Positions 5,624 through 49,796 of a stretch of 50,706 nt of DNA are shown here, in pieces. The translations under genes were made by a program, and so were the position numbers. The DNA comes from Methanosarcinales archaeon (GTDB lineage Bacteria > Chloroflexota > Anaerolineae > Anaerolineales > E44-bin32). Location of the stretch: positions 1-50,706 of the forward strand of contig JAIWHF010000001.1 of NCBI GenBank assembly GCA_048629905.1, in the 5' to 3' direction. The stretch's first letter is position 1. Each line of letters begins with the position of its first letter. A model generated the notes under the pieces. That model worked only from the letters and a program-made list of their open reading frames with translations. It ran no database searches and had not been told where the DNA came from.

Positions 5624-5649
5624 CACTAGACCCCACGGGTAGCGCTGGA

Positions 5650-24245: not shown

Positions 24246-24332
24246 GGGGCGGTGGCGGAATTGGCAGACGCCGGGGACTTAAAATCCTCTGAGGGAAACC
24301 TCGTGTGGGTTCGACTCCCACTCGCCCCACCA
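24246..24332 (+). tRNA. tRNA-Leu (anticodon UAA), class II with long variable arm, CCA encoded
   Basis: Acceptor stem GGGGCGG/TCGCCCC. Anticodon stem-loop GGGGA-CTTAAAA-TCCTC. Variable arm TGAGGGAAACCTCGTGT. T arm GTGGG-TTCGACT-CCCAC. 3' terminal ACCA. Confidence 0.9.
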
Positions 24333-37277: not shown

Positions 37278-37504
37278 TCTAATAATTACTGCCCCGCCAT
37301 GCCGTGTGCTGCTTGATTTTGAACCTGCTATTGCAGGCGGGATCCTACCAGTGACTTTCGCCTTGGCCGAAGCCTATCGCGTTGCCCACCGAATAACGAA
37401 CCCCATTTATCAAGTGTTGGCTCAAAACCTCTTGCTGCATCACGAACACAGCAGGGACTAATATGGGTATACCACGTTCAATTCTAGTTGGCAATATTTC
37501 ACCA

Positions 37505-39277
37505 TTAATCCTCGTCAACAACCCTCAAATGGAGCTCCTTCAATTGATTAGGCTCAGCCGGCGAGGGGGCATCTGCCATCACATCGCGCGCTGCTTGATT
37601 CTTAGGGAAGGCGATAACTTCGCGTATATGTTCCTCTCCAGCGAAGACGCGAACAAGCCGGTCGATCCCCGGCGCAATGCCGCCGTGAGGTGGAGTCCCG
37701 TATTCAAAAGCCTCAAGCATGTGGCCGAATCGCTCCTGAGCGACATCCGGTTCAAGACCGATTAAAGCGAATACCTTCTCCTGCAATTTTCGATCGTGGA
37801 TACGGATGCTCCCGCCACCAACCTCCAACCCGTTAAGCACCATGTCGTATTGTTGGCCGCGTGCTTTGCCGGGATCAGACTCCAACCACGAAAGGTCCTC
37901 TGGCATCGGTGCGGTGAAAAGATGGTGACTCGGATCCCAACGCTTCTCATCCTCATTCCAGCCCACAAAGGGAAAATCGATCACCCATGCGAAAGCGAGA
38001 ATCTCCGGATCCAGCAAGCCCAGCCGCTCGCCGAGGTGGACGCGTAAGCGCCCTAAGGATTCGAAGACAACGGCCGGTTTATCGGCTACAAACAGGAGCA
38101 GATCGCCGGGTTCGGCTTCCAGCCTGTGCAGTAAATCTTTAATCCGATCCTCCGCGAGAAACTTGGCAAAGGAAGACCGATGCTCTCCTTTCTCATCAAG
38201 CGCCAGGTACGCTAAACCCTTGGCTCCAAATTGCGCGACGAAAGCTGTCAGTTTCTCGATTTCCTTCCGGCTGAAACTCCCAGATCCTTTTACATTTAAG
38301 CCTCGGACTTCTCCACCCTTCTCGACAACCTTTTCAAACACCTGGAAGCCCGACTCCACCGCCAAATCCGTCACGTCTTTCAACTCCAGCCCAAAACGGA
38401 TATCCGGTGCATCTCGCCCAAAGCGCTCCAGCGCCTGGCGATACGTAAGCCGAGGCCAGGGTTTGTGCATCAGCTTTCTCTCGGGAAGCAGCTTCTCCAC
38501 CATCGTGGTGAACAGCTCCTCCGAAAGCGCCATTATGTCCTCACGATCGACGAAGGACATTTCGAGATCCAACTGGGTGAACTCCGGTTGGCGATCTCCG
38601 CGCTGATCTTCATCGCGAAAACAGCGAGCGATCTGGAAATAACGCTCAACGCCTGCAACCATCAGTAACTGTTTGAGCTGCTGAGGTGATTGCGGTAAGG
38701 CAAAAAACTCCCCCGGGTGAACGCGTGAGGGGACCAGGTAATCCCGCGCGCCTTCGGGTGTAGTCTTGAAAAGAATCGGAGTCTCCACTTCCCAGAAGTC
38801 GCGTTCGCTGAGGAAATCACGAATGTACTTGATCACCCTATGGCGAAGTTCCAGATTGCCCTTCATACGTTCGCGCCTGAGGTCTAGATATCGATACTTC
38901 AGGCGGACCATTTCGTCGACTTCCGTCTCTTCATTGATCGCAAACGGAGGCGTTTTCGCAGGGTTTAAGACGACAATCTTCTGGATTTCCACCTCAATCT
39001 CACCGGAAGACAGATCTGGGTTCACCATCCCCTCCGGTCGACTTCGAACAACCCCCTCGATCTGCAGCACCCATTCATTACGAATCTCAACCGCAGTTTC
39101 ATGCGCCTCAGGAGAGTTCTCTGGATTAGCGACGATCTGTGCAATTCCTGACCGATCGCGCAGGTCGATGAACGTCACCCCACCGTGATCCCGACGTCGG
39201 TTCACCCACCCGGCAAGTATCACCCGTTCGCCAATATGAACTGATCTCAGCTCGCCACAATCATGAGTCTTAAGCAT
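37505..39277 (-). CDS. aspS: Aspartate--tRNA ligase (possibly non-discriminating)
   Basis: 590 aa. N-terminal OB fold (VILAGWVNRRRDHGGVTFIDLRDRSG). Class II motifs (FRDEDQRGDRQPEFTQLD, GGGSIRIH, GIAPGIDRL). Confidence 0.95.
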   Translation of the reverse strand: MLKTHDCGELRSVHIGERVILAGWVNRRRDHGGVTFIDLRDRSGIAQIVANPENSPEAHETAVEIRNEWVLQIEGVVRSRPEGMVNPDLSSGEIEVEIQKIVVLNPAKTPPFAINEETEVDEMVRLKYRYLDLRRERMKGNLELRHRVIKYIRDFLSERDFWEVETPILFKTTPEGARDYLVPSRVHPGEFFALPQSPQQLKQLLMVAGVERYFQIARCFRDEDQRGDRQPEFTQLDLEMSFVDREDIMALSEELFTTMVEKLLPERKLMHKPWPRLTYRQALERFGRDAPDIRFGLELKDVTDLAVESGFQVFEKVVEKGGEVRGLNVKGSGSFSRKEIEKLTAFVAQFGAKGLAYLALDEKGEHRSSFAKFLAEDRIKDLLHRLEAEPGDLLLFVADKPAVVFESLGRLRVHLGERLGLLDPEILAFAWVIDFPFVGWNEDEKRWDPSHHLFTAPMPEDLSWLESDPGKARGQQYDMVLNGLEVGGGSIRIHDRKLQEKVFALIGLEPDVAQERFGHMLEAFEYGTPPHGGIAPGIDRLVRVFAGEEHIREVIAFPKNQAARDVMADAPSPAEPNQLKELHLRVVDED

Positions 39278-39292
39278 CGTACCTCCCTACTG

Positions 39293-39332
39293 AAAAAAAT
39301 ACACCGCCCGGTCTCAGTGACATCGGGCGGCG
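39293..39332 (-). terminator. Intrinsic terminator immediately upstream of the aspS RBS (attenuator segments 3:4)
   Basis: The minus strand reads CCGCCCG-AT-GTC-ACTGA-GAC-CGGGCGG followed by TGTATTTTTTT. It ends about 8 nt before the aspS RBS GGGAGG. Confidence 0.7.
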
Positions 39333-39354
39333 GCAGGTTCATTCTACAATCCGT

Positions 39355-39441
39355 TCACTTCATCCATGAACCCCACGCCCGATGCTGATTCGGATCGGGG
39401 TTGTTGTTCAGAACCAGAAAGCGTGAACCTTGGACCACCAT
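39355..39441 (-). CDS. Candidate 28-codon leader peptide MVVQGSRFLVLNNNPDPNQHRAWGSWMK
   Basis: The ATG lies 6 nt after the TATAAT, the same spacing as the probable leaderless adenosyltransferase gene. Asn/Asp codons AAC AAC AAC CCC GAT CCG AAT (39408-39388) overlap attenuator segment 1. The stop falls just after segment 2. Confidence 0.3.
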   Translation of the reverse strand: MVVQGSRFLVLNNNPDPNQHRAWGSWMK

Positions 39442-39520
39442 GCGACGATTATAGCATCCTTGTAAATAACCGGGCAACGCAGCTCCCGGTAATTCCATCA
39501 GGGTCGCCTTTGCTCCCCGG

Positions 39521-40855
39521 TTACATCCCTCTGATCGTATCGAGATCGTCAGGAGTATCGATATCGAGCATCGCCGCCTGTCCCCAGGGGACAGCTTCAA
39601 CAGAATACGTCTTGAATAACGCTCGTCCCCCTTCATCGCCGTGAATCCGACGCAGCGCTTCGAACGTCGCTCGGTCGAAAAGAACAGGATTTCCCCAACG
39701 CTCACCGCTCCAAGGCGCCACAATCGGCGCTAAGGACTTGCGATGGGTTTCCACCAGAGCACTAACAAGATCCGCATCAACAAGAGGCATATCCGCCAGG
39801 AGGAAAACTGCGCCATCAACATTGGGCGCCAGCATCCTAAGACCTGAGCGCACGGAGCTGCTTTGCCCCTCAGCCCAGTCGGGGTTGTTGGTGATTTGAA
39901 CCGCAAGCTGACCTAACGCATCTTTTACGTCCGGCCCATCTGCGCCGAGCACAACAACAATCGGATCAAGCCCCGCATCTCGCGCCGCTCGGACGGGCTT
40001 ATTTATTAAAGCTTCATCTTCCCAAAGCTCCAACAGTTTCGGTCGACCAAAACGACACGATCCCCCTCCCGCTAATATTATTCCGGCAATCCGCCCATGA
40101 ACTTCCACAACCGGGTCCCCCTGCCGCACCTGCGCCAAAATGACCGCCCCGATACGATCGGTCTTCAGGGTCAGCTTGGCGATTTCACGCCCACGCTCCA
40201 CCGTATTTTGCGTCTCAGCCTTATTCAAAATCACCCGCACCTGCGCGCTCGCCGGCACTGATTTTAAGGCTCCATTCGCGTGCGCCAGTATTCCAGCAAC
40301 GTCCGCGGCCTGAATAATGTGGTCCTTATGAATTCCTAAGAGTGCTCTGATCGATTCTGGTCGATAAACGAAATCACCGTCCAGTTTTGTTCCAATAGCA
40401 TCAAGACCCATCACCGGCACGACGAGATCGACAAACGGAGGTATGACCGGTTCATGCTCCGCAGGCGCTTTCAATGAGCGGCCCCTGGCGCCATCCGCTT
40501 CAATCAAGACCACGGCGCCCGAAGAAGCCGCCAAAGGCAGTAGAGCCGCAAGCAAATCCTCTGGAGGCGCGGTCCACTTCGGCTCTCCCGACCATCTCTC
40601 ACCGGTTACGAGGACGGAGCGCTTCTCTTGAAGAAGCGCAGGGAAGAGGTTCACATCCTCCTTTGAGCGAAGGATGATATGTTGATCAGCGAGATCTGTT
40701 TGATCCAGCGCTAATTTTGTGGTTGTCGTGATGAGAACAGGTGTCTTAGGCGTTAATTCTTCGACCAGCCGGCGGATGCTCGCAGATTTTCCGCCTGCGC
40801 CAACGAAAGCCACAATCTGCCCCGGGGAAATACGCAGGGCTTTCGATAATTCCAT
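39521..40855 (-). CDS. Fusion protein: YqeC-like selenium-dependent hydroxylase accessory domain plus MocA/MobA-like molybdenum cofactor nucleotidyltransferase domain
   Basis: N-terminal P-loop IVAFVGAGGKSASIRRL and overall YqeC-like pattern. C-terminal GIILAGGGSCRFGRPKLL...LLADMPLV...GNPVLFDR...GDEGGR matches NTP_transf_3 (MocA). Confidence 0.75.
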   Translation of the reverse strand: MELSKALRISPGQIVAFVGAGGKSASIRRLVEELTPKTPVLITTTTKLALDQTDLADQHIILRSKEDVNLFPALLQEKRSVLVTGERWSGEPKWTAPPEDLLAALLPLAASSGAVVLIEADGARGRSLKAPAEHEPVIPPFVDLVVPVMGLDAIGTKLDGDFVYRPESIRALLGIHKDHIIQAADVAGILAHANGALKSVPASAQVRVILNKAETQNTVERGREIAKLTLKTDRIGAVILAQVRQGDPVVEVHGRIAGIILAGGGSCRFGRPKLLELWEDEALINKPVRAARDAGLDPIVVVLGADGPDVKDALGQLAVQITNNPDWAEGQSSSVRSGLRMLAPNVDGAVFLLADMPLVDADLVSALVETHRKSLAPIVAPWSGERWGNPVLFDRATFEALRRIHGDEGGRALFKTYSVEAVPWGQAAMLDIDTPDDLDTIRGM

Positions 40856-40856
40856 C

Positions 40857-41675
40857 TCACCCGCTCAGCAGTCTTCGTAAATAGGGCTGTGAGAGCAGCG
40901 CTTCTAGCACGCCGCCGCCGACGGCGAGTGCTTTATCTGAAATCGAGAAACAATAGGATGGATCACCTCGCGGGTCCAGGTCGCCAATTTTCGATGCCGC
41001 TTCGATGCGCACGCCGTCATGCACCAACCCTCGCAGCGCTCCATCAAAGGGCGCTTCGACTGGCACATCACCCACACGGACAATCTCATCACCAGCCTTG
41101 ATCATGGAGCCGATCTCCTTGCCCCCGTCCAGAAGCCCGCTGACTGGCGCCCGCAGCACCCGGTCGACATTAAACCCTGCCACCGTTTCTGGGACTTTCG
41201 TATCCGGCTCAGCGCTGCCCTGCCAGATAACACGCCCCATATTGTGCCCCCGGTTGGTTTCAATCACTGTGTTACAGTTGACCCCGGCTGTGAATCCCGG
41301 TCCTAGTCCGATCGTGAATAGGGACGGGTCCAGAGTCGTCTCCGGTGGAGTTTTACGCATGCGTCCGTCGACCAGAGCTGATGCGTTGATCTGCGCGCTC
41401 AGGTTTCCCGCAGGATCGACCAGCACCGGAACGACACGCTCAAAGCGAAGCGGTGGGATCTGCTCGGAATCAGGGACGAAGACACCCCTAACGCCTCCCA
41501 CCTCGATCTCCCCCGAATAAACAGCTTCGGCAAAAGCGACGCGCCGCCGGACAGCCAGGGGCTGCTGAATCTCGAGTACGACAACGTCGAAGCCACAGCG
41601 ATGCAGGCGCACCGCTACCCCTGTCGCCAGGTCACCCCCACCCCGAAGTATGATGAGTGGTCTTTCAATTTCCAC
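40857..41675 (-). CDS. yqeB: YqeB/EF2563-family selenium-dependent molybdenum hydroxylase system protein
   Basis: 272 aa. N-terminal IILRGGGDLATGVAVRLHRCGFDVVVLEIQQPLAVRRRVAFAEAVY matches my recollection of TIGR03309-type proteins. Confidence 0.7.
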   Translation of the reverse strand: MEIERPLIILRGGGDLATGVAVRLHRCGFDVVVLEIQQPLAVRRRVAFAEAVYSGEIEVGGVRGVFVPDSEQIPPLRFERVVPVLVDPAGNLSAQINASALVDGRMRKTPPETTLDPSLFTIGLGPGFTAGVNCNTVIETNRGHNMGRVIWQGSAEPDTKVPETVAGFNVDRVLRAPVSGLLDGGKEIGSMIKAGDEIVRVGDVPVEAPFDGALRGLVHDGVRIEAASKIGDLDPRGDPSYCFSISDKALAVGGGVLEALLSQPYLRRLLSG

Positions 41676-41677
41676 GC

Positions 41678-43900
41678 TTATTGGATCTTTCCTATGCCGC
41701 GCAGGACTCGCTCAGGCGTCAGCGGAAACGAATCAAACCAGGTGCCGAGCGCATCATGAACCGCGGCGATAACGGCGGGCGCCAATGGGATATAGGGCAT
41801 CTCAGCCATCCCTCGCGCCCCCCAGGGGCCAATGGGGTCAGGATACTCAAGGATCAGCGATTCGACTTTGTCTGGGATGTCCAACACAGTGGGAATGAGA
41901 TAGGTCGAGAGCTGACCGGTCTGGACGTAGCCGCCCGCCTGTTGAAAATCCTCCAGGACTGCATAGCCAAGCGCCTGGACAACGGCACCCTCAATCTGTC
42001 CTTCAACCAACTGCGGGTTGATCGCCTGCCCTACATCATTGGCAGAGATAACTTCCAGGACGCGTATTGCGCCGGTCTCCGTGTCCACCTCAACCGAGAC
42101 AACCTGGGCGACGTAACCATACGCGAAATTAGGTTCTGACTTACCCGTCTTCGGGTCAAGAGGTGTCGTCGCTGGCGGGCGGTACTGATAGAAAGCGATG
42201 GCTGGTCGTTCCCCATCTTTCCACTTTTTCAGCGCTTCTTCAGCCGCACCCCGGATCGCGTTTCCGCTCATGAAAGTCAACCGCGAGGCGGATGCGGATC
42301 CCGAATCCGCGGTTTGCGCCGTATCAGAGACAATCAAGCGGACCTTCTCAATCGGGGCACCGACTGCATCGGCGGTCATCTGCGCCATCGCCGTATGCGT
42401 CCCTTGTCCGACTTCCGCCCCCGCGTGATGCAGGACGACTTCCTCAATCTCGGACTCGCCGTGTAATTCGATCTCCGCCGAGCACTGCTCCGGCGCACCA
42501 AACGAGAAGCCAACATTCTTGAAGCCGCAGGCGAAGCCTACGCCGTGCCGGATGTGCTCTTCCTGTGTGTCATTAGAGGCTTTTAACTCAGGTCTGCTCC
42601 AACCACGCTCTGTATGTTTCCAACCGGCTCTTTCTGCAGCCTTTTCGACGACTTTGTCGATGCTTACGCCCTTCGGCAGAGGCGTATCCACAGAGAGAAG
42701 AGAACCTTCTTTCAGCAGGTTCCGAACCCTGATTTCCACTGGATCGATCCCCAGTGATTCGGCCAGCTTATTCATCTGCCCCTCAGCAGCAAATGCTCCC
42801 TGTGGTCCGCCAAAACCACGGAAGGCGCCGCCAGGAATGTGATTTGTATACACGGAATATGCATCTACCTTCACGTTCGGAATCTCATAAGGACCCGTGC
42901 ACATCATGGTGGCATTCCCGAGAACCTTGGTGGAGGTATATGCGTATGCACCGCCGTCCTGGATCACATCAACCTCAGCAGCCGTGAGAACGCCATCTTT
43001 CGTGGCCCCCCATTTCGTCCTTAAGATGAAGGGATGCCGCTTGTGGTGACCGATGATCGATTCTTCCCGGGACCAGATGATCTTGACCGGCCTATCGATA
43101 CCTTGCTGGTGCAAACGATAGACAGCGAGCGCCAGGACGATCTGGATCGACATATCCTCCCGTCCGCCGAAGGCCCCACCAATAGCAGGGTAGATCACAC
43201 GGATCTGATCCTGCGGCAGCCCCAATGCGTGGGCAACTTGTTCCTGGTCTTCATGCGTCCATTGTCCGGCGGCTTCGATCGTCACCCGCCCTTCTTCATC
43301 GATATAACTAATTCCCGCTTCTGGCTGAAGATACGCATGCTCCTGCCAAGGGGTATGGTATTCTCCTTCGATAATCACATCCGCTGCCCCAAAACCCGCC
43401 TCAAGATCCCCCTTCCGAATCTGGTAATGACAGAAGACATTACTGCCATTATCGGGGTGGATGAGGGAGCTTGATTCACGCATGGCTTCCAGTGGATCCA
43501 GAATCACTGGCAAATCCTCATATTCCACCACGATGCGCTTGACCGCCTCAGCGGCGATCGTTTCTTGGTCGGCAATAACCAGCGCGACCTGGTCACCAAT
43601 AAACCGGACCCGGTCGGCATAGGGCTTGGGTGACCCCGGGCCACACAAGACAGGCTGATCGGGCATGATGAGACCATACTCGTTTACAGGCACGTCCTTA
43701 GCGGTGAAGACCGCCACGACACCGGGGATAGATTCAGCGGAGGTTGTATCAATCTTGGTGACGCGGGCGTGGGGTCGACCCGCAAAGAGAATCTTCATAT
43801 ATGCCTGGTTGGGTCGGTTGATATCCCCCGGGTAAAGGGCCTTTCCAGTGACTTTTCCAACAGCGTCGATGCGCTGGATTGATTTCCCAATCACAGACAT
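41678..43900 (-). CDS. Xanthine dehydrogenase family molybdopterin-binding large subunit
   Basis: 740 aa. N-terminal a/b hammerhead (GKSIQRIDAVGKVTGKALYPGDI). Typical GGAFGGRE, GGFGGPQ-like (GAFRGFGGPQG) and C-terminal GxxE (ARGMAEMP) motifs. Confidence 0.9.
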   Translation of the reverse strand: MSVIGKSIQRIDAVGKVTGKALYPGDINRPNQAYMKILFAGRPHARVTKIDTTSAESIPGVVAVFTAKDVPVNEYGLIMPDQPVLCGPGSPKPYADRVRFIGDQVALVIADQETIAAEAVKRIVVEYEDLPVILDPLEAMRESSSLIHPDNGSNVFCHYQIRKGDLEAGFGAADVIIEGEYHTPWQEHAYLQPEAGISYIDEEGRVTIEAAGQWTHEDQEQVAHALGLPQDQIRVIYPAIGGAFGGREDMSIQIVLALAVYRLHQQGIDRPVKIIWSREESIIGHHKRHPFILRTKWGATKDGVLTAAEVDVIQDGGAYAYTSTKVLGNATMMCTGPYEIPNVKVDAYSVYTNHIPGGAFRGFGGPQGAFAAEGQMNKLAESLGIDPVEIRVRNLLKEGSLLSVDTPLPKGVSIDKVVEKAAERAGWKHTERGWSRPELKASNDTQEEHIRHGVGFACGFKNVGFSFGAPEQCSAEIELHGESEIEEVVLHHAGAEVGQGTHTAMAQMTADAVGAPIEKVRLIVSDTAQTADSGSASASRLTFMSGNAIRGAAEEALKKWKDGERPAIAFYQYRPPATTPLDPKTGKSEPNFAYGYVAQVVSVEVDTETGAIRVLEVISANDVGQAINPQLVEGQIEGAVVQALGYAVLEDFQQAGGYVQTGQLSTYLIPTVLDIPDKVESLILEYPDPIGPWGARGMAEMPYIPLAPAVIAAVHDALGTWFDSFPLTPERVLRGIGKIQ

Positions 43901-43957
43901 TCATTGCTCCAGGCGATGGTTATTTCGAGTATCACTTAGACCCTCTAACTGGGTGGC

Positions 43958-45664
43958 CTACGATCGCTGTCGCTCTAATTCTAGGTCGAATATGCGCCGC
44001 AGAGCTGCGGTGCTAATAGCGTAGGTTGGATCCATGCCGAAATAGGAAAGCGAGCCAGCCCCCAGGGTCTTCCCACGGGTCAATGGAGTATCGGATGCAT
44101 AGTGGAGGACACCAAGGTCAAATGGCAGACCATATAAGTTGACGATCTCATTTATCGGATACCGTTTTGGACGGAAGAGTTCATATACAGCCGATAAATA
44201 CGGGCTTGCCTCCATCTCGATGTCCGTATAGCCCTCTCGATAGAACACATCCATGTAGCGCGGCGTTTGCAGGAACGTACCCAGCACACTTACGGCTTTC
44301 TGATTGTCGAGAACTGTTCCATAAACCAGGTCATCGCGTAGATCTGCGGCGCTGAAGGAATTCTCAAAGAGATACGTGTTGCGTGAATGTTCGTCATGGA
44401 TAACTGCCGGGACCATCACGTCGCCAATGACACCATTCAGAGTCGCCGCCTTGCCCATGACGTAAACGCCCCGCAATTCTCCAAATCGTGTAGCAGCATG
44501 TGAGAGAATCAGGTAGGCAGCCATCCCCAGTGGATAGTCGATGTTCATAACAATCGCGTCAGAATCCTTAAGCCGATCAAGGTCCTCACGCCGGAGCCGT
44601 GTGTCGATCCAATCAGAGCGTATATTTTTAAGCTCGATAAGCTGGGCTTCAACGTCGAAAGCATGTTCGCTCTGAACGCGTACGATCCCAGCCTCTCGTT
44701 CGGCTTGTGCTCGCTGACTATGAGCATCTTTTCCATGCTCCGACCGCACATACTTCTTAAGTGTGTAGTAGAGGAAATTCTCTCGACTGGAAGGGATCTC
44801 TTTGGATTTGATCTCTTCCCATTCTTCCAGGAGCTTATGACACTCTGGTTGCTGCAGGTAGCGAACAAGTTCTTCTTCATGGCGCAGGGCATAACCGCTG
44901 ATTAAGTTAACGATACTGTGGGCGTTACTGGAGACGAAATAAACCGGTCGCTGCAGGATGGAAGGCATCGCCTTCTCGATTCCTTCCCACCAGATTTGGG
45001 TCGCCTGGCGGTAATCATTTAGCGAACCTGCTAAGAGGCGGATTTTTAACCGCTTCTCCTTCGAGGCGATTGCAGTGAGCATCGTCCAGAATGACTCCCC
45101 CCAAGCATCGTGCAATCTCTTCAACTCATCGGTTTTCATCGCCAATCCGGCAGCCAGAACCGCAAGCCCTTCATTCGTCTTGAGTGGGTCATTTAGAAAT
45201 GTTCTAACCTGTTCACCTTGTAATAAGTGATGAAGTTTGTTCCACTCGATTTGGTAGGCAGTTAAAAGCGGAACCATATCGTCGATATCTGAGCGGCTGG
45301 CGATGTAGCAGGCAAGTGTGTCTTTACCATCGAAGAAACTCCTCCGGCGGCGAGCCTGCGCCACAGCCGGCTGCCACTTCTCGACATTTCCGAATCCCTT
45401 GTTTGCGAAGACAGCCTGGCTTTGACCAAGCACAACTCGCTCCACATCTACGATGCAAGATGGCAAGCGAAGAGAACTGTAGATAAGCGCCGACGTATCC
45501 GGAGTTTCGGAACGCGCATCCGGGTGAAGAGATGACCCCATGTTCGTGTGCACTTCCTCAAGCGAACGCACTCGCACATCCATTGTGGACCGTAATAGCG
45601 AGTAATACGTCCGCATGTAGAGCTCGATTTCTTCAGAGCCTGTGCGTGGCACGGTTCTATCCAT
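43958..45664 (-). CDS. Uncharacterised 568-aa protein with C-terminal nucleoside phosphorylase-like (PNP_UDP_1-like) region
   Basis: The C-terminal ~220 aa read NIDYPLGMAAYLILSHAATRFGELRGVYVMGKAATLNGVIGDVMVP...DIEMEASPYL. This follows the phosphorylase/nucleosidase pattern: a Gly-rich strand-loop, GD, then ME(S/A). I do not recognise the N-terminal ~350 aa. Confidence 0.45.
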   Translation of the reverse strand: MDRTVPRTGSEEIELYMRTYYSLLRSTMDVRVRSLEEVHTNMGSSLHPDARSETPDTSALIYSSLRLPSCIVDVERVVLGQSQAVFANKGFGNVEKWQPAVAQARRRRSFFDGKDTLACYIASRSDIDDMVPLLTAYQIEWNKLHHLLQGEQVRTFLNDPLKTNEGLAVLAAGLAMKTDELKRLHDAWGESFWTMLTAIASKEKRLKIRLLAGSLNDYRQATQIWWEGIEKAMPSILQRPVYFVSSNAHSIVNLISGYALRHEEELVRYLQQPECHKLLEEWEEIKSKEIPSSRENFLYYTLKKYVRSEHGKDAHSQRAQAEREAGIVRVQSEHAFDVEAQLIELKNIRSDWIDTRLRREDLDRLKDSDAIVMNIDYPLGMAAYLILSHAATRFGELRGVYVMGKAATLNGVIGDVMVPAVIHDEHSRNTYLFENSFSAADLRDDLVYGTVLDNQKAVSVLGTFLQTPRYMDVFYREGYTDIEMEASPYLSAVYELFRPKRYPINEIVNLYGLPFDLGVLHYASDTPLTRGKTLGAGSLSYFGMDPTYAISTAALRRIFDLELERQRS

Positions 45665-45673
45665 CGGTATACC

Positions 45674-46078
45674 TCAATATCTACGTTTCCTTTTCTCTCG
45701 CCGCTCTCTGCGCTTCTTGCGTTTCTCAGCCTTCCGGTCGATCGCGACATCTGTTTCGCCTGGCCGAATAGGAAAGGCCATCGAGTAGATAACACTGAGA
45801 ACCGTGTAGCTTAGGAGTGTGAATAGAAAACCTACGATGATCTTGATCAGCAAACCGCCTCCCAGAAAGGGAGCGAATTTGGGATATAGGGCAGCTTGCG
45901 GCATGTACATCCAGCCGTTCTCAGCGTTGGCGCGCAGAAACCAATCAGCGAAGAAATAGCCAGCAGTGGCGAAGAGCGCAATTAGGATTAATCCCACCCC
46001 TCTCCACTTGGGATCTAAACGTTCCCTTTTTTCCCGCTCCTTATCGAGAGATCTAAAGCGGTAGGAATCTCGTCCCAT
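45674..46078 (-). CDS. Small membrane protein with highly basic termini
   Basis: 134 aa with two or three TM helices. The C-terminal tail is KAEKRKKRRERREKRKRRY. Confidence 0.5.
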   Translation of the reverse strand: MGRDSYRFRSLDKEREKRERLDPKWRGVGLILIALFATAGYFFADWFLRANAENGWMYMPQAALYPKFAPFLGGGLLIKIIVGFLFTLLSYTVLSVIYSMAFPIRPGETDVAIDRKAEKRKKRRERREKRKRRY

Positions 46079-46185
46079 GACGGCTTCCTCCTCCTCGGCT
46101 CGCTAAGAGCCGAGAACTCTTGTTATTAACTCCCATCAGGGAGCATGTATCGCAGTAATCATGTCACAACGATACCGCAAGAGAT

Positions 46186-47622
46186 TCATTGTGACTCAGA
46201 ACCCGACTGCATTAGTCCAGCAGCGCGCTCGAAAGCAGAGAGTATCTTATAGTAACCGGTGCAGCGGCACAGGTTACCTGTAATCGCCTGCTGGATCGAA
46301 AATATATCAGGCTCGGGCTGTTCTTCGAATAATTTAGCCCCCGCCATCAAGAACCCCGGTGTGCAATATCCGCATTGCACTGCACCTTCATCAATAAAAG
46401 CTTGCTGCAGCGGATGCAGCTTGTCATCCTGACTAAGCCCTTCGATGGTAACGATCTCTGCCCCGTGCGCCCGCGGTGCGGGCACCATACAAGCCATCAC
46501 CGCCACACCGTCGAGATAAACTGTGCAAGCACCGCATTCACCTTCCGCACAGCCCTCCTTCGTGCCGGTTAATCCCCCTTCCTCACGCAAGAGACGCAGA
46601 AGGGTCTTATTAAACCCGCTCTTGAAGCGATGCGGCTTCCCATTGATGGTCGTCTCGATCGTTACGTCTTGATGATGTTCCATGGAGTCCAATAGGGGTT
46701 GAATCGGTTGAACTCCCGATCTTCCCCGCAGCATCACTGGATTCTCGGGGAAGCCCTCTCGCTCGCTTTCATTATTAATCTGCCGCAACGCCCGGAGTGT
46801 GCAAACTCGCACCATCTCCTGGCGGTATCCTGCGCTTCCCCGTAAATCGTCAATAGGGCGAGCTGCAAGCCCAGCAAGTTCGGCAGCCTTTTCGATGACA
46901 TCAGGTTGGAGTTCCTTTCCTATCAGGAAAGTCTCTGCCTCCGTCGCGTGGATGATCGTCGGTGCCACTGAGCCAAGCGTGATTACCGAGTGTTCAATTT
47001 GCCCCTCCGTAATCAATAGCACTACGGCTGCGTTTACGACCGAAATCGCCTGCGCTCTACGCAACCCGAGTTTTATAAACGTGCTTCGAGCATTTTCTGC
47101 GAGGACCGGGAAGGCGATGTCGCTCATCAGCTCCCCGTCCTTCATGACTGTTTTTCGTACGCCGGTGTAGAAATCCTCAATCGGTACTGTGCGTTCCCCC
47201 TCCACAGAGAGCAAAGTGAGCCGTGCTCCCAGCGCCATGAGCGGCGGGATGGCGTCGTTGGCTGGCGAGGCGGTGATGATATTCCCGGCGACTGTTCCGC
47301 GGTTGCGGATTTGGGGTGCGCCCACCTGCCAACAGGCTCGCGCCAGTGTGAACCCTTTTTGTTGAATGAGCTCTGACCCGGCACAATGGTTGTGCGTCAC
47401 CAAAGGACCGAGGTGGACCCAACCGTCATCATCAAGCGTAATCATATCCTGACCCGGTATACGTGAAATATCGATTAATAGTTCCACACCCGGTCGTTGT
47501 CCGCGTTCCAATTCAAGGATCAGATCGGTTGCCCCGGCGACGATTCGAGCTCTCTCATTGTGTGCCGCTAGCAGTTCCACGGCTTCCTGCAATGTCGAGG
47601 GGGTGTAATAACGCGTCCACAT
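46186..47622 (-). CDS. Fused FAD-binding (CoxM/XdhB-like) and [2Fe-2S] (CoxS/XdhC-small-like) subunit of a molybdenum hydroxylase
   Basis: N-terminal FAD_binding_5 pattern (RIVAGATDLILELE, IRNRGTVAGNI). C-terminal ferredoxin-like GCAEGECGACTV and the second cluster CGYCTPGF...CRCTGY. Confidence 0.9.
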   Translation of the reverse strand: MWTRYYTPSTLQEAVELLAAHNERARIVAGATDLILELERGQRPGVELLIDISRIPGQDMITLDDDGWVHLGPLVTHNHCAGSELIQQKGFTLARACWQVGAPQIRNRGTVAGNIITASPANDAIPPLMALGARLTLLSVEGERTVPIEDFYTGVRKTVMKDGELMSDIAFPVLAENARSTFIKLGLRRAQAISVVNAAVVLLITEGQIEHSVITLGSVAPTIIHATEAETFLIGKELQPDVIEKAAELAGLAARPIDDLRGSAGYRQEMVRVCTLRALRQINNESEREGFPENPVMLRGRSGVQPIQPLLDSMEHHQDVTIETTINGKPHRFKSGFNKTLLRLLREEGGLTGTKEGCAEGECGACTVYLDGVAVMACMVPAPRAHGAEIVTIEGLSQDDKLHPLQQAFIDEGAVQCGYCTPGFLMAGAKLFEEQPEPDIFSIQQAITGNLCRCTGYYKILSAFERAAGLMQSGSESQ

Positions 47623-47631
47623 ATTACGTCT

Positions 47632-48453
47632 CTACCTGCCCTTCCCTTTGCGAGGGCGTTTTGGCGAATGTGCCATTCTTTCACCAGTTCCACCGTGGCG
47701 CAACATGATGATCTGTGCCAGAACGGACACCGCTATCTCCTCCGGCGTTTCAGCGTTTAATTCCAGCCCTATGGGCGACGTCACGCGGGCGATTTTATCC
47801 TCCGGCACGCCTCGCTCGCGTAAAGCCTCCACAGTAGTCTCCCATCGACGCCGCGACCCTATCACCCCGATGTACGCCGCTGAGGTCTCCAACAGCGCCG
47901 GTAGACCCTCAACATCCACATCGACGCCGCGCGTAGTCAAAACCAAGTAGGTACTCTCGTGGATGTCCACATGCTCGGGCAATTCCTTCAGAGAGCAGGA
48001 GAAATGCGCGTCGGCATCCGGATGATTTTCCGGAGTGGCAAAATCCGCCCGATCATCGGCGACAACCACACGAAACCCAAGCCACTTGGCAAGGTGTACG
48101 ATGGCTTTCCCGACATGACCTCCACCGGCTACAACAAGGGTTTCATTGGCTTTGATCGGTTCAATAAACACCTCTGCCTCGCCTCCACAAATGCCCACAT
48201 CCCCTTTTTCAGGATCGCGGAAAGCATACACAATCGACCGCGTTTCTCCATCCTTTAGCGACTCTAGCGCTTCGGCGACCACGCGGCTTTCCATCTCACC
48301 GCCACCGATCGTTCCATCAATACGACCATCGGGGAAAACAACCATCTTGCTGCCGGCCCGTCGCGGCACTGCGCCCTGGGTTCGAATCACCGTCGCCAAT
48401 GCCGCTGCTCCCCCTTTGCTCTCAAGCTCTGCCAGCGTCTGGTAGATACCCAC
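47632..48453 (-). CDS. XdhC/CoxI family molybdenum hydroxylase maturation protein
   Basis: AALATVIRTQGAVPRRAGSKMVV..DGRIDGTIGGGEMES plus a Rossmann-like VVAGGGHVGKA. Uses a GTG start. Confidence 0.85.
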   Translation of the reverse strand: MGIYQTLAELESKGGAAALATVIRTQGAVPRRAGSKMVVFPDGRIDGTIGGGEMESRVVAEALESLKDGETRSIVYAFRDPEKGDVGICGGEAEVFIEPIKANETLVVAGGGHVGKAIVHLAKWLGFRVVVADDRADFATPENHPDADAHFSCSLKELPEHVDIHESTYLVLTTRGVDVDVEGLPALLETSAAYIGVIGSRRRWETTVEALRERGVPEDKIARVTSPIGLELNAETPEEIAVSVLAQIIMLRHGGTGERMAHSPKRPRKGKGR

Positions 48454-49796
48454 TAACCCTCCAAAAGCGCCAGAATTACAGGGACCAACTGCTTTTTTCG
48501 AGAGACCACACCGCGAGCCTCGTACGTTTCATCTGGTAGACGCTTATATGGCAGCTCATAAAGAAGCGCGGGAGCTCTGCGGATTACGATCCGGCTCGAA
48601 CCGTCCACAATATCGGTCACCATTAGAAGTGCAAAACTCAAACCGCGTCCTTCGATGAGCTTGTCCAGCGCGTCTTTGAGCCCTGAAAGATGATCATCCA
48701 CTTCACGAAGATCGGTCACTTCAGCCTGAGCAATCCCAAATTTTAATCCGGCGGATTCATAAATTTTCAAGTCGCTCGAAATAACATCGTCGGGTTCACG
48801 TGACGCGAGCCCGGCTGCTGCTTTAAGCACCGCCTCACCGAAGCTCTCAGTAGACTCGTTCTCCAATGGAGAACCGCCAACGAAAGCCCACCGGCCAAGG
48901 CGTTCACATGCACGGTGATCGCGATCGGTAGTTGTTGGGGAGTTTAGGCGAAGCGTATCCGAGAACACCCCGGCAAGGAGCAACCCGGCGATTGCAGGCG
49001 GTGCGCTCATGCCATTGTCCTCGATCCGTTCGGAGACCAGCGTGCTTGTGCTCCCAACCGGGTCCACACGGAATCGAATAGGCAGCCGCGTTGGCGGATT
49101 GTTCACGCGATGGTGATCCAGAACTTCAAGAAGATCGGCTTCATCCAGTGATCGGATCGACTGACTTACTTCATTGTGATCAACAAGAATGACCTGGAGC
49201 CGCGGCGGATTGAGCAAATCCCGCTGCCGGCATATACCGACATAGCGCCCATCCTGATCAACCACCCAGAAATCATTGCGTTCTTCGCGCAGCACTCTGG
49301 GGAGCCCCTCACGTATTCGCGAACTGGAGAGGAATTTCGGCACATCGGTGTCAGCCACTTCCCTGCACGGTTGATCGAAGAGTTCCTGAAGACGGATATC
49401 CTGTAACTCTAGTCTTGGTCCCACCAAATTGCTCAGGGATCGAAATAAGCTGAACCCCGAGATAAGGCCGAACGGTATCCCATCAGAATCAACAACCGGC
49501 GCTACCGTTCCTGTTCGATTGGCGATTGCCCACGCATCACGCAACGTTTGATCCGGCGTAACGGTGTCATATCTATGAACGACAACCTCGAAACGGGGCG
49601 AAGCATCAGCCAGAAACTCAGGAGGAGACAATTCCAGCCGGTCGAGAACCCATGCCGTCTGTGCGTTAACTGGGCCGGCGCGAGCAGCGACAACTTCGCC
49701 GTCGCCCTTTGCATTCCGGAACCAGGCATAACCAATAGCAGATGCGATCGCATCGGTATCCGGGTTAACATGTCCAACGACGTAGATCTTGCTCAT
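48453..49796 (-). CDS. DHH/DHHA2 family II pyrophosphatase-like protein with inserted CBS domains
   Basis: VGHVNPDTDAIASAI and LVDHNE (family II PPase DHH motifs), an internal CBS-pair-like ~120 aa, and a C-terminal DHHA2-like region. Confidence 0.7.
   Translation of the reverse strand: MSKIYVVGHVNPDTDAIASAIGYAWFRNAKGDGEVVAARAGPVNAQTAWVLDRLELSPPEFLADASPRFEVVVHRYDTVTPDQTLRDAWAIANRTGTVAPVVDSDGIPFGLISGFSLFRSLSNLVGPRLELQDIRLQELFDQPCREVADTDVPKFLSSSRIREGLPRVLREERNDFWVVDQDGRYVGICRQRDLLNPPRLQVILVDHNEVSQSIRSLDEADLLEVLDHHRVNNPPTRLPIRFRVDPVGSTSTLVSERIEDNGMSAPPAIAGLLLAGVFSDTLRLNSPTTTDRDHRACERLGRWAFVGGSPLENESTESFGEAVLKAAAGLASREPDDVISSDLKIYESAGLKFGIAQAEVTDLREVDDHLSGLKDALDKLIEGRGLSFALLMVTDIVDGSSRIVIRRAPALLYELPYKRLPDETYEARGVVSRKKQLVPVILALLEG

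What the first reader, a model, noticed from the sequence alone, without database searches (positions are those of the whole stretch)
39278..39478. Classical ribosome-mediated attenuator upstream of aspS with an Asn/Asp-rich, apparently leaderless leader peptide
What the sequence shows, on the minus strand:
- The promoter is TTGCCC-18 nt-TGCTATAAT.
- Six nt later, an ATG opens a 28-codon ORF encoding MVVQGSRFLVLNNNPDPNQHRAWGSWMK-stop.
- Codons AAC AAC AAC CCC GAT CCG AAT overlap RNA segment 1 (AACCCCGAT).
- Segment 1 pairs with segment 2, either as ATCGGG or as GGGGTT.
- Segment 2 (GCATCGGGCG) is also complementary over 9-10 bp to segment 3 (CGCCCGATGT).
- Segment 3 is the 5' arm of a strong terminator, CCGCCCG..CGGGCGG plus T7.
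- That terminator ends only about 8 nt before the aspS RBS.

Because no promoter can fit between the terminator and aspS, transcription of aspS from this promoter must read through the terminator.

Inference: stalling at Asn/Asp codons would free segment 2 to form the 2:3 antiterminator. A ribosome that reaches the stop codon just after segment 2 would instead favour the 3:4 terminator. Mixed Asn and Asp codons would make sense for a non-discriminating AspRS that charges both tRNA-Asp and tRNA-Asn.

Established knowledge: leader-peptide attenuation of aminoacyl-tRNA synthetase genes is known for pheST in E. coli. I am not aware of it being described for aspS or outside Proteobacteria.
Basis: partly seen in the sequence, partly recalled or inferred. 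Interest (0 to 1): 0.65.

Follow-up and report, generated by a model that had tools for sequence, protein, structure and literature searches.

The report
Asparagine/aspartate-sensing leader-peptide attenuator before aspS
A 28-codon upstream mini-gene rich in asparagine and aspartate codons, followed by a terminator hairpin that can be switched off, most likely lets this Anaerolineae (Chloroflexota) bacterium raise aspartyl-tRNA synthetase output when charged tRNA-Asn or tRNA-Asp runs short; I found the same device in about 150 relatives and no description of it in the databases or papers I could search.

Summary
These are an extended -10 promoter, an ATG 6 nt after it, a 28-codon ORF (MVVQGSRFLVLNNNPDPNQHRAWGSWMK), three mutually exclusive pairings, and a terminator plus U7 ending 5 nt before the aspS RBS.

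Comparative data support the attenuator reading.
- An ATG-started small ORF with at least 5 Asn/Asp codons in 7 precedes aspS in 37 of 78 Anaerolineae loci. Shuffled sequence gives 0.05.
- A metagenome scan added about 115 more examples.
- 89% of run codons are AAY/GAY and only 1% are Lys/Glu.
- The antiterminator and terminator helices both covary. This includes a position that is unpaired in the terminator but covaries with its antiterminator partner.
- The stop codon lies inside the antiterminator hairpin in 150 of 151 leaders.
- In 57% of leaders the ATG sits 6-11 nt after TGnTATAAT, which implies a leaderless mRNA.
- No T-box or other Rfam family matches.

New context: asnS follows aspS in 26 of 80 relatives, though not in this window. 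asnA carries its own copy of the attenuator in some metagenome contigs.

No transcript or regulation data exist. I file this as a new member of a known kind.

The parts
39472..39477 (-). -35-like hexamer TTGCCC (4 of 6 matches), 18 nt upstream of the -10. It is probably dispensable.
   Evidence: Across the family the -35 is no better than control, with at least 4 of 6 matches in 27 of 145 leaders against 32 in the control.
39448..39456 (-). Extended -10 promoter element TGCTATAAT.
   Evidence: TATAAT is perfect in 138 of 145 related leaders and TG-extended in 132 of 145.
39355..39441 (-). Leader ORF of 28 codons plus TGA, MVVQGSRFLVLNNNPDPNQHRAWGSWMK. The ATG starts 6 nt after the -10, so the mRNA is predicted to be leaderless.
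   Evidence: The -10-to-ATG distance is 6-11 nt in 86 of 150 related leaders. The others have a 12-45 nt UTR, with an SD-like motif in 44 of 64.
39388..39408 (-). Regulatory codon run AAC AAC AAC ccc GAT ccg AAT (4 Asn, 1 Asp).
   Evidence: Family statistics are: 89% of run codons are AAY/GAY and 1% are Lys/Glu.
39394..39399 (-). Segment 1 (CCCGAU). It pairs with AUCGGG of segment 2 as the anti-antiterminator and lies inside the codon run.
   Evidence: MFE folds.
39376..39385 (-). Segment 2 (GCAUCGGGCG), the 5' strand of the antiterminator base helix, inside the leader ORF.
   Evidence: duplex -26.1 kcal/mol. Covariation with segment 3 is shown. The GGGYG core is read in two different frames across the family.
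39366..39372 (-). 5' arm (GGUUCAU) of the inner helix of the antiterminator hairpin.
   Evidence: folds with a ribosome at the Asn codons.
39336..39342 (-). 3' arm (AUGAACC) of the inner helix of the antiterminator hairpin. The leader stop codon (39357-39355) lies in the loop between the two arms.
39320..39329 (-). Segment 3 (CGCCCGAUGU). It is shared between the antiterminator (pairing with segment 2) and the terminator 5' arm. Its AU is unpaired in the terminator but paired in the antiterminator.
39302..39332 (-). Intrinsic terminator hairpin (segments 3:4), -19.6 kcal/mol.
   Evidence: Across the family 94.9% of cells are paired, with 25 compensatory cells.
39293..39299 (-). U7 tract of the terminator.
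39282..39287 (-). aspS Shine-Dalgarno GGGAGG, 5 nt after the U tract and 4 nt before the ATG.
37505..39277 (-). aspS, the regulated gene. It encodes a bacterial-type AspRS of 590 aa with OB, class II core and GAD domains.

Best explanation
This is a classical ribosome-mediated (leader-peptide) transcription attenuator controlling aspS.

Proposed mechanism:
1. Transcription starts at an extended -10 promoter, at or next to the A of the leader ATG. The 28-codon leader would then be translated as a leaderless mRNA. This step is inferred.
2. The leader contains Asn and Asp codons just upstream of, and overlapping, segment 1.
3. If charged tRNA-Asn or tRNA-Asp is scarce, the ribosome stalls on the run. 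It covers segment 1, so segment 2 pairs with segment 3 as soon as segment 3 is made. This antiterminator hairpin prevents the 3:4 terminator, and RNA polymerase reads into aspS.
4. If the charged tRNAs are plentiful, the ribosome runs on through segment 2 to the stop codon inside the antiterminator hairpin. The terminator then forms and transcription stops 24 nt before aspS.
5. Without translation, 1:2 and 3:4 form and transcription also terminates.

What is shown: the sequence elements, their geometry, their conservation and their covariation in about 150 related leaders.

What is inferred: the start site, translation of the ORF, termination, and the response to Asn/Asp supply.

The same element also precedes aspS-asnS operons and asnA in relatives. 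The family is therefore best described as an Asn/Asp-tRNA charging sensor for genes of Asp/Asn-tRNA and asparagine supply.
For: Anatomy in the window.

Conservation and codon-level constraint:
- 37 of 78 Anaerolineae aspS loci carry an ATG-started small ORF with at least 5 of 7 Asn/Asp codons, against a shuffle mean of 0.05 and maximum of 1. No other amino acid pair approaches this.
- Four more loci carry the element 470-820 nt upstream.
- A metagenome scan with the terminator pattern gave 120 stretches. Of 111 with a downstream ORF, 96 are followed by AspRS. 105 of 118 with enough upstream sequence have at least 5 of 7 N/D codons.
- Inside the runs, 1075 of 1210 codons are AAT/AAC/GAT/GAC. 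Only 13 are AAA/AAG/GAA/GAG, so the third position is constrained to a pyrimidine. This is a reading-frame, tRNA-level constraint.

RNA-level constraint:
- The conserved GGGYG core of segment 2 is read in frame 0 in 87 leaders and frame 1 in 46. Its conservation is therefore at the RNA level, not the peptide level.
- On an independent MAFFT alignment of 37 loci chosen by AspRS homology, the antiterminator has 86.5% of cells paired against 31-46% for slid controls, with 17 compensatory cells. The terminator has 94.9% paired, with 25 compensatory cells.
- Column 119 is unpaired in the terminator yet covaries with its antiterminator partner (CG 28, UA 5).
- In the metagenome set, segment-3 A always faces U (56 of 56). 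Segment-3 G faces C or U (48 of 49).

Geometry (n = 151):
- The last N/D codon is a median 10 nt before segment 2, and the first is 33 nt before it.
- The stop codon is a median 11 nt after segment 2 and 20 nt before segment 3.
- The stop lies between segments 2 and 3 in 150 of 151 leaders.

Folding of truncated transcripts: the antiterminator forms in 135 of 145 leaders with a ribosome at the first N/D codon, against 58 of 145 with a ribosome at the stop codon.

Start signals: TGnTATAAT lies 6-11 nt before the ATG in 86 of 150 leaders. The rest have a UTR, with an SD-like motif in 44 of 64.

Gene specificity:
- The attenuator also precedes asnA (PF03590, E = 3e-103) in tandem with aspS.
- In L099 the asnA leader has 10 Asn and 0 Asp codons, while the aspS leader on the same contig has 3 Asn and 3 Asp.

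No Rfam family, T-box included, matches.
Against: There is no experimental evidence at all.

- Metatranscriptome contigs cover the leader and aspS, but they extend upstream of the predicted start site (39540, 39507, 39669) and may include DNA. They neither support nor refute the TSS or termination.
- In equilibrium folds of the full-length window leader, the terminator fold stays the MFE for 5 of 6 ribosome positions. The alternatives differ by only about 2 kcal/mol, so the model relies on co-transcriptional kinetics.
- In the window the stop codon is 18 nt beyond the segment-2 core. A ribosome parked at the stop would therefore not directly cover segment 2. A static fold still allows the 2:3 base helix behind it.
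- Across the family, the untranslated truncated transcript also forms 2:3 in 90 of 145 cases.
- The window leader has a short run (NNN-P-D-P-N). By geometry only the three Asn codons are well placed.
- 29 of 78 relatives show no such leader within 400 nt.
Confidence: 0.85

Rival explanations
1. Why Asn codons, rationale A. AspRS here is non-discriminating and makes Asp-tRNA-Asn for GatCAB. On this view Asn-codon stalling reports a shortage that more AspRS relieves directly. This is the same attenuator mechanism with a specific physiological logic.
For: - Asn codons outnumber Asp codons in aspS leaders (mean 5.3 against 2.5).
- This holds even where aspS is monocistronic, as in the window (19 loci, mean 3.8 Asn and 1.8 Asp).
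- The window AspRS has His31 and Gly83. So do the two PDB enzymes labelled Asp/Asn ligase (4wj3, 5w25). The discriminating T. thermophilus and E. coli enzymes have Leu31 and a gap or Lys.
- Most prokaryotes lack AsnRS (PMC2330236).
Against: - His31 is present in 76 of 80 relatives, including those with a bona fide asnS directly downstream. The signature therefore does not indicate absence of AsnRS.
- That these two residues determine tRNA-Asn acceptance rests on my memory of a paper I could not retrieve.
- The genome outside the 50-kb window could not be searched. No asnS, asnA or gatCAB lies in the window.
Confidence: 0.35
2. Why Asn codons, rationale B. The element evolved as the attenuator of an aspS-asnS operon, with Asp codons serving AspRS and Asn codons serving AsnRS. 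In the window lineage asnS has moved elsewhere or been lost. The Asn codons then persist as co-regulation or as a relic.
For: - asnS (NF003037, 539.6 bits against a cutoff of 414) follows aspS within -1 to 169 nt, with no terminator or leader in between, in 26 of 80 relatives.
- 22 of those 26 carry the leader, against 19 of 42 without asnS downstream.
- Their leaders are richer in Asn (6.0 against 3.8).
- Some contigs have attenuator-asnA-attenuator-aspS-asnS.
Against: - In the window and its closest relatives aspS is followed directly by 6S RNA, yet the Asn run is kept (NNN in the window and L002, NDN in L001). This argues for continuing selection.
- The ancestral gene order is not known.
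Confidence: 0.45
3. The element is an untranslated RNA switch, such as a riboswitch, a T-box-like tRNA sensor, or a site for a protein such as AspRS itself. On this view the small ORF is incidental.
For: - aaRS genes in many Gram-positive lineages use T-boxes.
- The terminator/antiterminator pair is strongly conserved in sequence.
Against: - There is no T-box or any other Rfam hit, even at E up to 10 or in 33 related loci.
- The leader from start site to terminator is only 149 nt.
- The A-rich run is constrained as in-frame AAY/GAY codons (89%), with Lys/Glu at 1%.
- It is always inside an ATG-to-stop frame whose stop falls in the antiterminator (150 of 151).
- It is preceded by either a leaderless promoter spacing or an SD.
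- Sequence outside the run and the paired segments is not conserved.
Confidence: 0.05
4. The hairpin is simply the terminator of the upstream Mo-cofactor gene cluster (or a chance hairpin), and the ORF is a chance ORF or a small functional peptide gene.
For: - The upstream gene (39521-40855) is on the same strand, and no other terminator separates it from aspS.
- RNA contigs span the junction.
Against: - The upstream gene differs among relatives, while the promoter, ORF, antiterminator and terminator module always travels with aspS or asnA.
- A perfect TGnTATAAT sits between the upstream gene and the ORF.
- A terminator 24 nt before an essential gene with no intervening promoter would silence it unless it can be read through.
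- The peptide sequence is not conserved apart from the N/D run. The apparent C-terminal motif is RNA-level.
Confidence: 0.03

Closest known systems
pheST attenuator of Escherichia coli (pheM leader peptide)
   Same: An aminoacyl-tRNA synthetase operon controlled by a short leader ORF rich in codons for the cognate amino acid. Mutually exclusive antiterminator and terminator hairpins sit just upstream of the synthetase gene.
   Different: - Different amino acids: Asn plus Asp rather than Phe.
- Two kinds of regulatory codon.
- Phylum Chloroflexota rather than Proteobacteria.
- A leaderless start in the window clade.
- There is no sequence relationship.
Amino-acid biosynthetic operon attenuators (trp, his, leu, thr, ilv, pheA; Rfam Trp/His/Leu/Thr leaders)
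   Same: The same four-segment logic, with 1:2, 2:3 and 3:4 pairings, regulatory codons at segment 1 and the stop near segment 2. Mixed-codon leaders are known from thr and ilv. The asnA copies of this element are biosynthetic-operon attenuators in exactly this sense.
   Different: - No Rfam leader family matches.
- I found no Asn- or Asp-codon leader in the literature I could search.
- The main target here is a synthetase gene.
T-box riboswitch (RF00230)
   Same: It controls aaRS genes by terminator/antiterminator choice in response to tRNA charging. It occupies the same position upstream of the gene.
   Different: - A T-box senses uncharged tRNA directly, through Stem I, the specifier codon and the T-box bulge.
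- None of these is detectable here.
- The sensor here is a translating ribosome.
Leaderless polycysteine short ORFs of mycobacteria (bioRxiv 10.1101/834739)
   Same: A leaderless mRNA begins with a short ORF carrying a run of codons for one amino acid. That ORF acts as an amino-acid-responsive attenuator of downstream genes.
   Different: - Actinobacteria and cysteine, with cysteine-metabolism targets.
- The abstract I retrieved does not describe a conserved intrinsic terminator and antiterminator pair like the one here.
Actinobacterial leader-peptide attenuators (trp, ilvB, leuA; PMC1262725, PMC10272879)
   Same: They are predicted or tested ribosome-mediated attenuation outside Proteobacteria, identified by comparative genomics.
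   Different: They involve different genes, codons and phylum. None concerns aspS, asnS or asnA.

Membership tests
Classical leader-peptide (ribosome-mediated) transcription attenuator | A short ORF with credible start signals, close to the promoter and upstream of the regulated gene. | tested here: met
   The ATG lies 6 nt after TGCTATAAT in the window. In 150 related leaders it is 6-11 nt after the -10 in 86. The rest have a UTR, with an SD-like motif in 44 of 64.
Classical leader-peptide (ribosome-mediated) transcription attenuator | A run of codons for the amino acid(s) tied to the function of the regulated gene, conserved as codons. | tested here: met
   37 of 78 loci have at least 5 of 7 N/D codons, against 0.05 in shuffles. 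89% of run codons are AAY/GAY and 1% are Lys/Glu. Targets are aspS, aspS-asnS and asnA.
Classical leader-peptide (ribosome-mediated) transcription attenuator | An intrinsic terminator between the leader ORF and the gene, with no promoter after it. | tested here: met
   A hairpin of -19.6 kcal/mol plus U7 ends 15 nt before the aspS ATG, and the region holds only one promoter-like site. The terminator covaries across the family.
Classical leader-peptide (ribosome-mediated) transcription attenuator | An antiterminator that shares a strand with the terminator, supported by covariation. | tested here: met
   86.5% of cells are paired against 31-46% when slid, with 17 compensatory cells. A position that is unpaired in the terminator covaries with its antiterminator partner.
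Classical leader-peptide (ribosome-mediated) transcription attenuator | Geometry: a ribosome at the regulatory codons frees the antiterminator 5' strand, and a ribosome reaching the stop prevents it. | tested here: inconclusive
   - Family medians fit: last N/D codon 10 nt before segment 2, and stop codon 11 nt after it and inside the antiterminator in 150 of 151.
- The antiterminator forms in 135 of 145 leaders with a ribosome at the first N/D codon, against 58 of 145 with one at the stop.
- In the window itself the stop is 18 nt past the segment-2 core, and static folds still allow 2:3.
Classical leader-peptide (ribosome-mediated) transcription attenuator | An anti-antiterminator (1:2) that sequesters segment 2 when the leader is not translated. 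| tested here: inconclusive
   Segment 2 pairs upstream in 39 of 45 loci when segment 3 is absent. Once segment 3 is included, equilibrium folds choose 2:3 in 90 of 145 untranslated leaders.
Classical leader-peptide (ribosome-mediated) transcription attenuator | Read-through responds to the supply of the charged tRNA and depends on leader translation. | not testable with these tools
   Only assembled metatranscriptome contigs exist, and they are uninformative.
T-box riboswitch | Match to the T-box covariance model (Stem I with specifier loop, and the conserved T-box sequence in the antiterminator bulge). | tested here: not met
   There is no RF00230 hit at E up to 10 in 39100-39700. There is none at gathering score in the window or in 33 related loci.
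Rfam amino-acid leader families (Trp, His, Leu, Thr leaders and others) | Match to any curated leader covariance model. | tested here: not met
   The only weak matches are 23S-methyl (16.4 bits against a gathering score of 50), which aligns to the hairpins only, and a lncRNA fragment.
Non-discriminating bacterial-type AspRS (as the regulated enzyme) | Charges tRNA-Asn, in a genome that lacks AsnRS and has GatCAB. | not testable with these tools
   His31 and Gly83 resemble the Asp/Asn ligases 4wj3 and 5w25. His31 also occurs next to asnS in relatives.

The most novel reading that the evidence does not exclude
In lineages such as this one, aspS is monocistronic and the leader is still dominated by Asn codons. 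There the attenuator may sense Asn-tRNA-Asn made by the indirect route (non-discriminating AspRS plus GatCAB). It would then be the first known regulatory device that reads the output of tRNA-dependent asparagine synthesis and feeds back on the misacylating synthetase. Together with the asnA and aspS-asnS copies, this would define a leader-peptide regulon for Asn/Asp decoding in Anaerolineae, run largely from leaderless mRNAs.
Probability: 0.3. Interest if true: 0.72.

Novelty: new member of a known kind. Interest (0 to 1): 0.6.

Why it matters
Ribosome-mediated attenuation is textbook biology, but it is documented for few amino acids and few phyla. For synthetase genes it is essentially limited to pheST.

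This work adds several things.
- It gives about 150 covariation-supported examples of an Asn/Asp-codon attenuator in Chloroflexota (class Anaerolineae, mostly uncultured). The element controls aspS, aspS-asnS operons and asnA.
- It supplies a previously missing regulatory mechanism for these genes in a phylum where no T-box was found at these loci.
- It offers a natural test bed for transcription-translation coupling on leaderless mRNAs.
- It is a ready-made annotation feature. The element is missed by Rfam, and the ORFs are too short for gene callers.
- If the Asn codons report on the indirect Asn-tRNA pathway, it would link attenuation to transamidation for the first time.

Tried and rejected
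- **T-box or other known RNA family.** I ran Rfam at E up to 10 on the region, and at gathering score on the window and 33 loci. The only real hits were 6S RNA and a tRNA. Rejected.
- **Transcript evidence.** Two run searches and two read-laying runs on eight metatranscriptome runs gave only low-depth assembled contigs. These span the promoter and may contain DNA, and four runs had nothing. Inconclusive.
- **Literature.** Nine searches found no aspS, Asn or Asp leader-peptide attenuator. The one paper most likely to overlap (Lopatovskaya et al. 2010, Mol Biol 44:128) is not held, so prior prediction cannot be excluded.
- **asnS, gatCAB or asnA in this organism.** I annotated 39 ORFs of the window and found none. 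A protein search with an Anaerolineae AsnRS returned only close relatives of that query and no link to the window lineage.
- **A further copy in the window.** Only one N/D-run ORF exists in 50.7 kb.
- **A second leader between aspS and asnS in relatives.** None was found. Those spacers hold repeat-like hairpins.
- **A gene between the distal attenuators and aspS in L021, L035, L036 and L039.** There is only repetitive sequence.
- **Equilibrium folding as a test of the switch.** It discriminates only partly.
Full report
**What is at the locus**

- TTGCCC lies at 39477-39472, followed by 18 nt and then TGCTATAAT at 39456-39448.
- Six nt later an ATG at 39441 opens a 28-codon ORF, MVVQGSRFLVLNNNPDPNQHRAWGSWMK, with its stop at 39357-39355.
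- A hairpin, CGCCGCCCGATGTCACTGAGACCGGGCGGTG, lies at 39332-39302 (-19.6 kcal/mol), followed by T7 at 39299-39293.
- The aspS RBS GGGAGG is at 39287-39282 and the aspS ATG is at 39277.

aspS (37505-39277) encodes a 590-aa bacterial-type AspRS with OB, catalytic and GAD domains.

The upstream gene on the same strand is a YqeC plus MobA-like fusion. It is the last gene of a molybdenum-cofactor and xanthine-dehydrogenase-like cluster. Downstream lie 6S RNA (37287-37460), recA, recX and rny.

AspRS relatives place the window in Anaerolineales (Chloroflexota), with best matches at 95-96% identity. Sequencing runs that hold it are cold-seep and marine-sediment metagenomes.

**Structure in the window**

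The unconstrained fold pairs CCCGAU (39399-39394, inside the codon run) with AUCGGG of segment 2, and it forms the terminator.

Segment 2 (GCAUCGGGCG, 39385-39376) is complementary to segment 3 (CGCCCGAUGU, 39329-39320). The predicted duplex is -26.1 kcal/mol, z = -3.7.

I add one feature. Segments 2 and 3 form the base of a longer hairpin with an inner helix, GGUUCAU (39372-39366) pairing with AUGAACC (39342-39336). The leader stop codon lies in its loop.

The AU of segment 3 is bulged in the terminator but paired in the antiterminator.

**Is it more than chance? Relatives chosen by protein, not by RNA**

I fetched 80 aspS loci from GTDB species representatives, all Anaerolineae or Chloroflexota MAGs with 64-96% AspRS identity.
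- In the 400 nt upstream, 37 of 78 usable loci have an ATG-started ORF of 10-60 codons with at least 5 Asn/Asp codons in a 7-codon window.
- 100 dinucleotide shuffles gave a mean of 0.05 and a maximum of 1.
- Asn is the dominant residue (26 loci with at least 4 Asn in 7), and no other amino-acid pair comes close.
- Four further loci carry the element 470-820 nt upstream, with repetitive DNA in between.
- Several more have shorter runs.
- Nearly all positive loci have a terminator of conserved shape, UCGCCC-GA-CGC...GCG-GA-GGGCGA followed by a U tract.

**More examples and the regulon**

- Of 111 with a downstream ORF, 96 are followed directly by AspRS.
- 105 of 118 with enough upstream sequence have at least 5 of 7 N/D codons. 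One leader has 20 consecutive Asn codons.
- Five are followed instead by AsnA, aspartate-ammonia ligase (PF03590, E = 3e-103).
- Three contigs have attenuator-asnA-attenuator-aspS in tandem.
- In L099 the asnA leader has 10 Asn and no Asp codons, while the aspS leader 1.2 kb downstream has 3 Asn and 3 Asp. Each has its own TGTGCTATAAT and SD.

**Translation-level and RNA-level constraints separate cleanly**

Inside the runs, 1075 of 1210 codons are AAT, AAC, GAT or GAC. Only 13 are the Lys/Glu codons that differ at the third base alone. The run is therefore constrained as in-frame Asn/Asp codons and is not merely A-rich RNA.

Conversely, the apparently conserved C-terminal peptide motif (R-A/V-G, VGRS) is the segment-2 nucleotide motif. 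Its GGGYG core is read in frame 0 in 87 leaders and frame 1 in 46. The rest of the peptide is not conserved.

**Covariation**

I used a plain MAFFT alignment of 37 protein-selected loci (A1).
- The antiterminator (columns 54-64 with 113-123) has 86.5% of cells paired, against 31-46% when the partner is slid by 1-3 columns. It has 17 compensatory cells in 3 pairs, and 0 of 500 shuffles reach the observed covariation score.
- The terminator has 94.9% paired, 25 compensatory cells, and 0 of 500 shuffles reaching its score.
- Column 121 covaries with both partners.
- Column 119 lies in the terminator's internal loop, yet it covaries with its antiterminator partner (CG 28, UA 5, UG 1).
- In the metagenome set, where only two degenerate positions of segment 3 were free, segment-3 A faces U in 56 of 56 cases. 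Segment-3 G faces C or U in 48 of 49.

This is direct support for the alternative 2:3 pairing.

**Geometry**

Across 151 distinct leaders:
- The first N/D codon is a median 33 nt before segment 2, and the last is 10 nt before it.
- The stop codon is a median 11 nt after segment 2 and 20 nt before segment 3.
- The stop lies between segments 2 and 3 in 150 of 151 leaders.
- The median energies of the 2:3 duplex (-19.1) and the terminator (-18.9) are balanced.

I also folded transcripts truncated before the terminator 3' arm.
- With a ribosome footprint at the first N/D codon, the antiterminator forms in 135 of 145.
- With a footprint at the middle N/D codon, it forms in 128 of 145.
- With the ribosome at the stop codon, it forms in 58 of 145.
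- With no ribosome, it forms in 90 of 145.

The discrimination goes in the expected direction but is not absolute. As in the classical systems, the decision must be kinetic.

In the window itself the folds behave as the model predicts for no ribosome, for the first and middle Asn codons, and for the last N/D codon. However, the stop codon is 18 nt beyond the segment-2 core. Blocking of 2:3 by a terminating ribosome would therefore work by occupying the interior of the hairpin, not by covering segment 2.

By spacing, the three consecutive Asn codons are the well-placed regulatory codons here.

**Start signals**

The -10 is a perfect TATAAT in 138 of 145 distinct leaders and TG-extended in 132. 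The -35 is no better than a control position, so these are extended -10 promoters.

The in-frame ATG lies 6-11 nt after the -10 in 86 of 150 leaders: 6 nt in the window clade, with a peak at 9 nt in the metagenome set. This implies a 5' UTR of 0-4 nt. The rest have 12-45 nt UTRs, 44 of 64 with an SD-like motif.

**Why Asn codons before aspS?**

- For it: the window enzyme has His31 and Gly83. So do the two PDB entries labelled Asp/Asn ligase (P. aeruginosa 4wj3, M. tuberculosis 5w25). The discriminating T. thermophilus and E. coli enzymes have Leu31 and a gap or Lys. The window's aspS is monocistronic and still carries an Asn run.
- Against it being settled: in 26 of 80 relatives a bona fide asnS (NF003037, 539.6 bits) follows aspS within -1 to 169 nt, without a leader or terminator in between.
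- 22 of those 26 carry the N/D leader, against 19 of 42 loci without asnS downstream. Their leaders are richer in Asn (6.0 against 3.8).
- His31 is present in 76 of 80 AspRS regardless of arrangement.

In much of the family, then, the mixed codons match a two-synthetase operon. Whether the window organism has asnS elsewhere could not be tested. I rate the two rationales at 0.35 and 0.45. Neither affects the attenuator mechanism itself.

**Alternatives to the mechanism**

- No Rfam family, T-box included, matches at E up to 10 or in 33 related loci.
- An untranslated switch does not explain the codon-level constraint, the frame-stop placement or the start signals.
- A plain operon terminator does not explain the dedicated promoter. 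It also does not explain why the whole module travels with aspS and asnA behind different upstream genes.
- Metatranscriptome contigs show that aspS, 6S RNA and the leader region are represented in RNA libraries. They extend upstream of the predicted start site at low depth and may include DNA, so they decide nothing.

**Comparison with known systems and novelty**

Mechanistically this is the pheST or trp type of attenuator. Multi-amino-acid leaders (thr, ilv) and leaderless attenuator ORFs (mycobacterial polycysteine ORFs, bioRxiv 10.1101/834739) both have precedent.

What I could not find anywhere is an Asn- or Asp-codon leader, attenuation of aspS, asnS or asnA, or any such element in Chloroflexota.

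I therefore classify it as a new member of a known kind. It is well supported by comparative evidence and untested experimentally.

Noticed in passing
window 37287-37460 (-); also L003, L013, L014, L017-L019, L021, L027, L031, L032, L034, L035, L039, L043, L056, L063, L075, L078-L080, L099: 6S RNA (RF00013, 75.3 bits) lies 45 nt after the aspS stop codon. The aspS(-asnS)-6S order is conserved in at least 23 Anaerolineae loci, which raises the question of whether 6S is processed from the aspS transcript.
   Followed up: partly
L015, L016, L021, L025, L026, L029, L030, L033-L039, L043, L045, L046, L048, L050, L051, L056, L058-L061, L068 (about 4770-6290 in each): asnS (AsnRS) lies directly downstream of aspS in 26 of 80 relatives, forming an apparent aspS-asnS operon. 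This is not the case in the window.
   Followed up: yes
L099:187-1461, L157:7179-8452, L180:3202-4447, L096, L166: asnA (aspartate-ammonia ligase) carries its own copy of the attenuator, in tandem with the aspS copy. The L099 asnA leader is Asn-only.
   Followed up: yes
L102 (leader upstream of position 1218): This leader peptide has 20 consecutive Asn codons ([42 protein letters not shown]), the extreme of the family.
   Followed up: no
L021:2520-3000, L035, L036, L039:2184-3000; aspS-asnS spacers of L026, L046, L050, L051: Repetitive, hairpin-forming (REP-like) sequence is inserted between the attenuator and aspS (470-820 nt) and in the aspS-asnS spacers. No gene is encoded there.
   Followed up: partly
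window 19992-24011 (-): SecA is 1339 aa, far longer than the 787-814-position SecA models. It matches them in 4-6 separate stretches, which suggests one or more large insertions.
   Followed up: no
window 9737-10876 (-): An IS110-family transposase (NF033542, E = 5.5e-71) marks a mobile element in the window.
   Followed up: no
window 11148-11876 (+): This ORF matches the Rcas_1661 family of thioredoxin-like (seleno)lipoproteins only over its C-terminal part. An in-frame Sec codon or a mis-set start is possible.
   Followed up: no
window 39521-49796 (-): A molybdenum-cofactor and xanthine-dehydrogenase-like cluster lies immediately upstream of the attenuator. It comprises a YqeC plus MobA-like fusion, an unassigned 272-aa ORF, a MoCoBD large subunit, DUF6909, an FAD/FeS subunit, XdhC and a Mn-dependent pyrophosphatase. 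No terminator separates it from the aspS leader.
   Followed up: partly
window 24246-24329 (+): A single tRNA gene (84 nt, Rfam 50.1 bits). Its anticodon was not determined.
   Followed up: no
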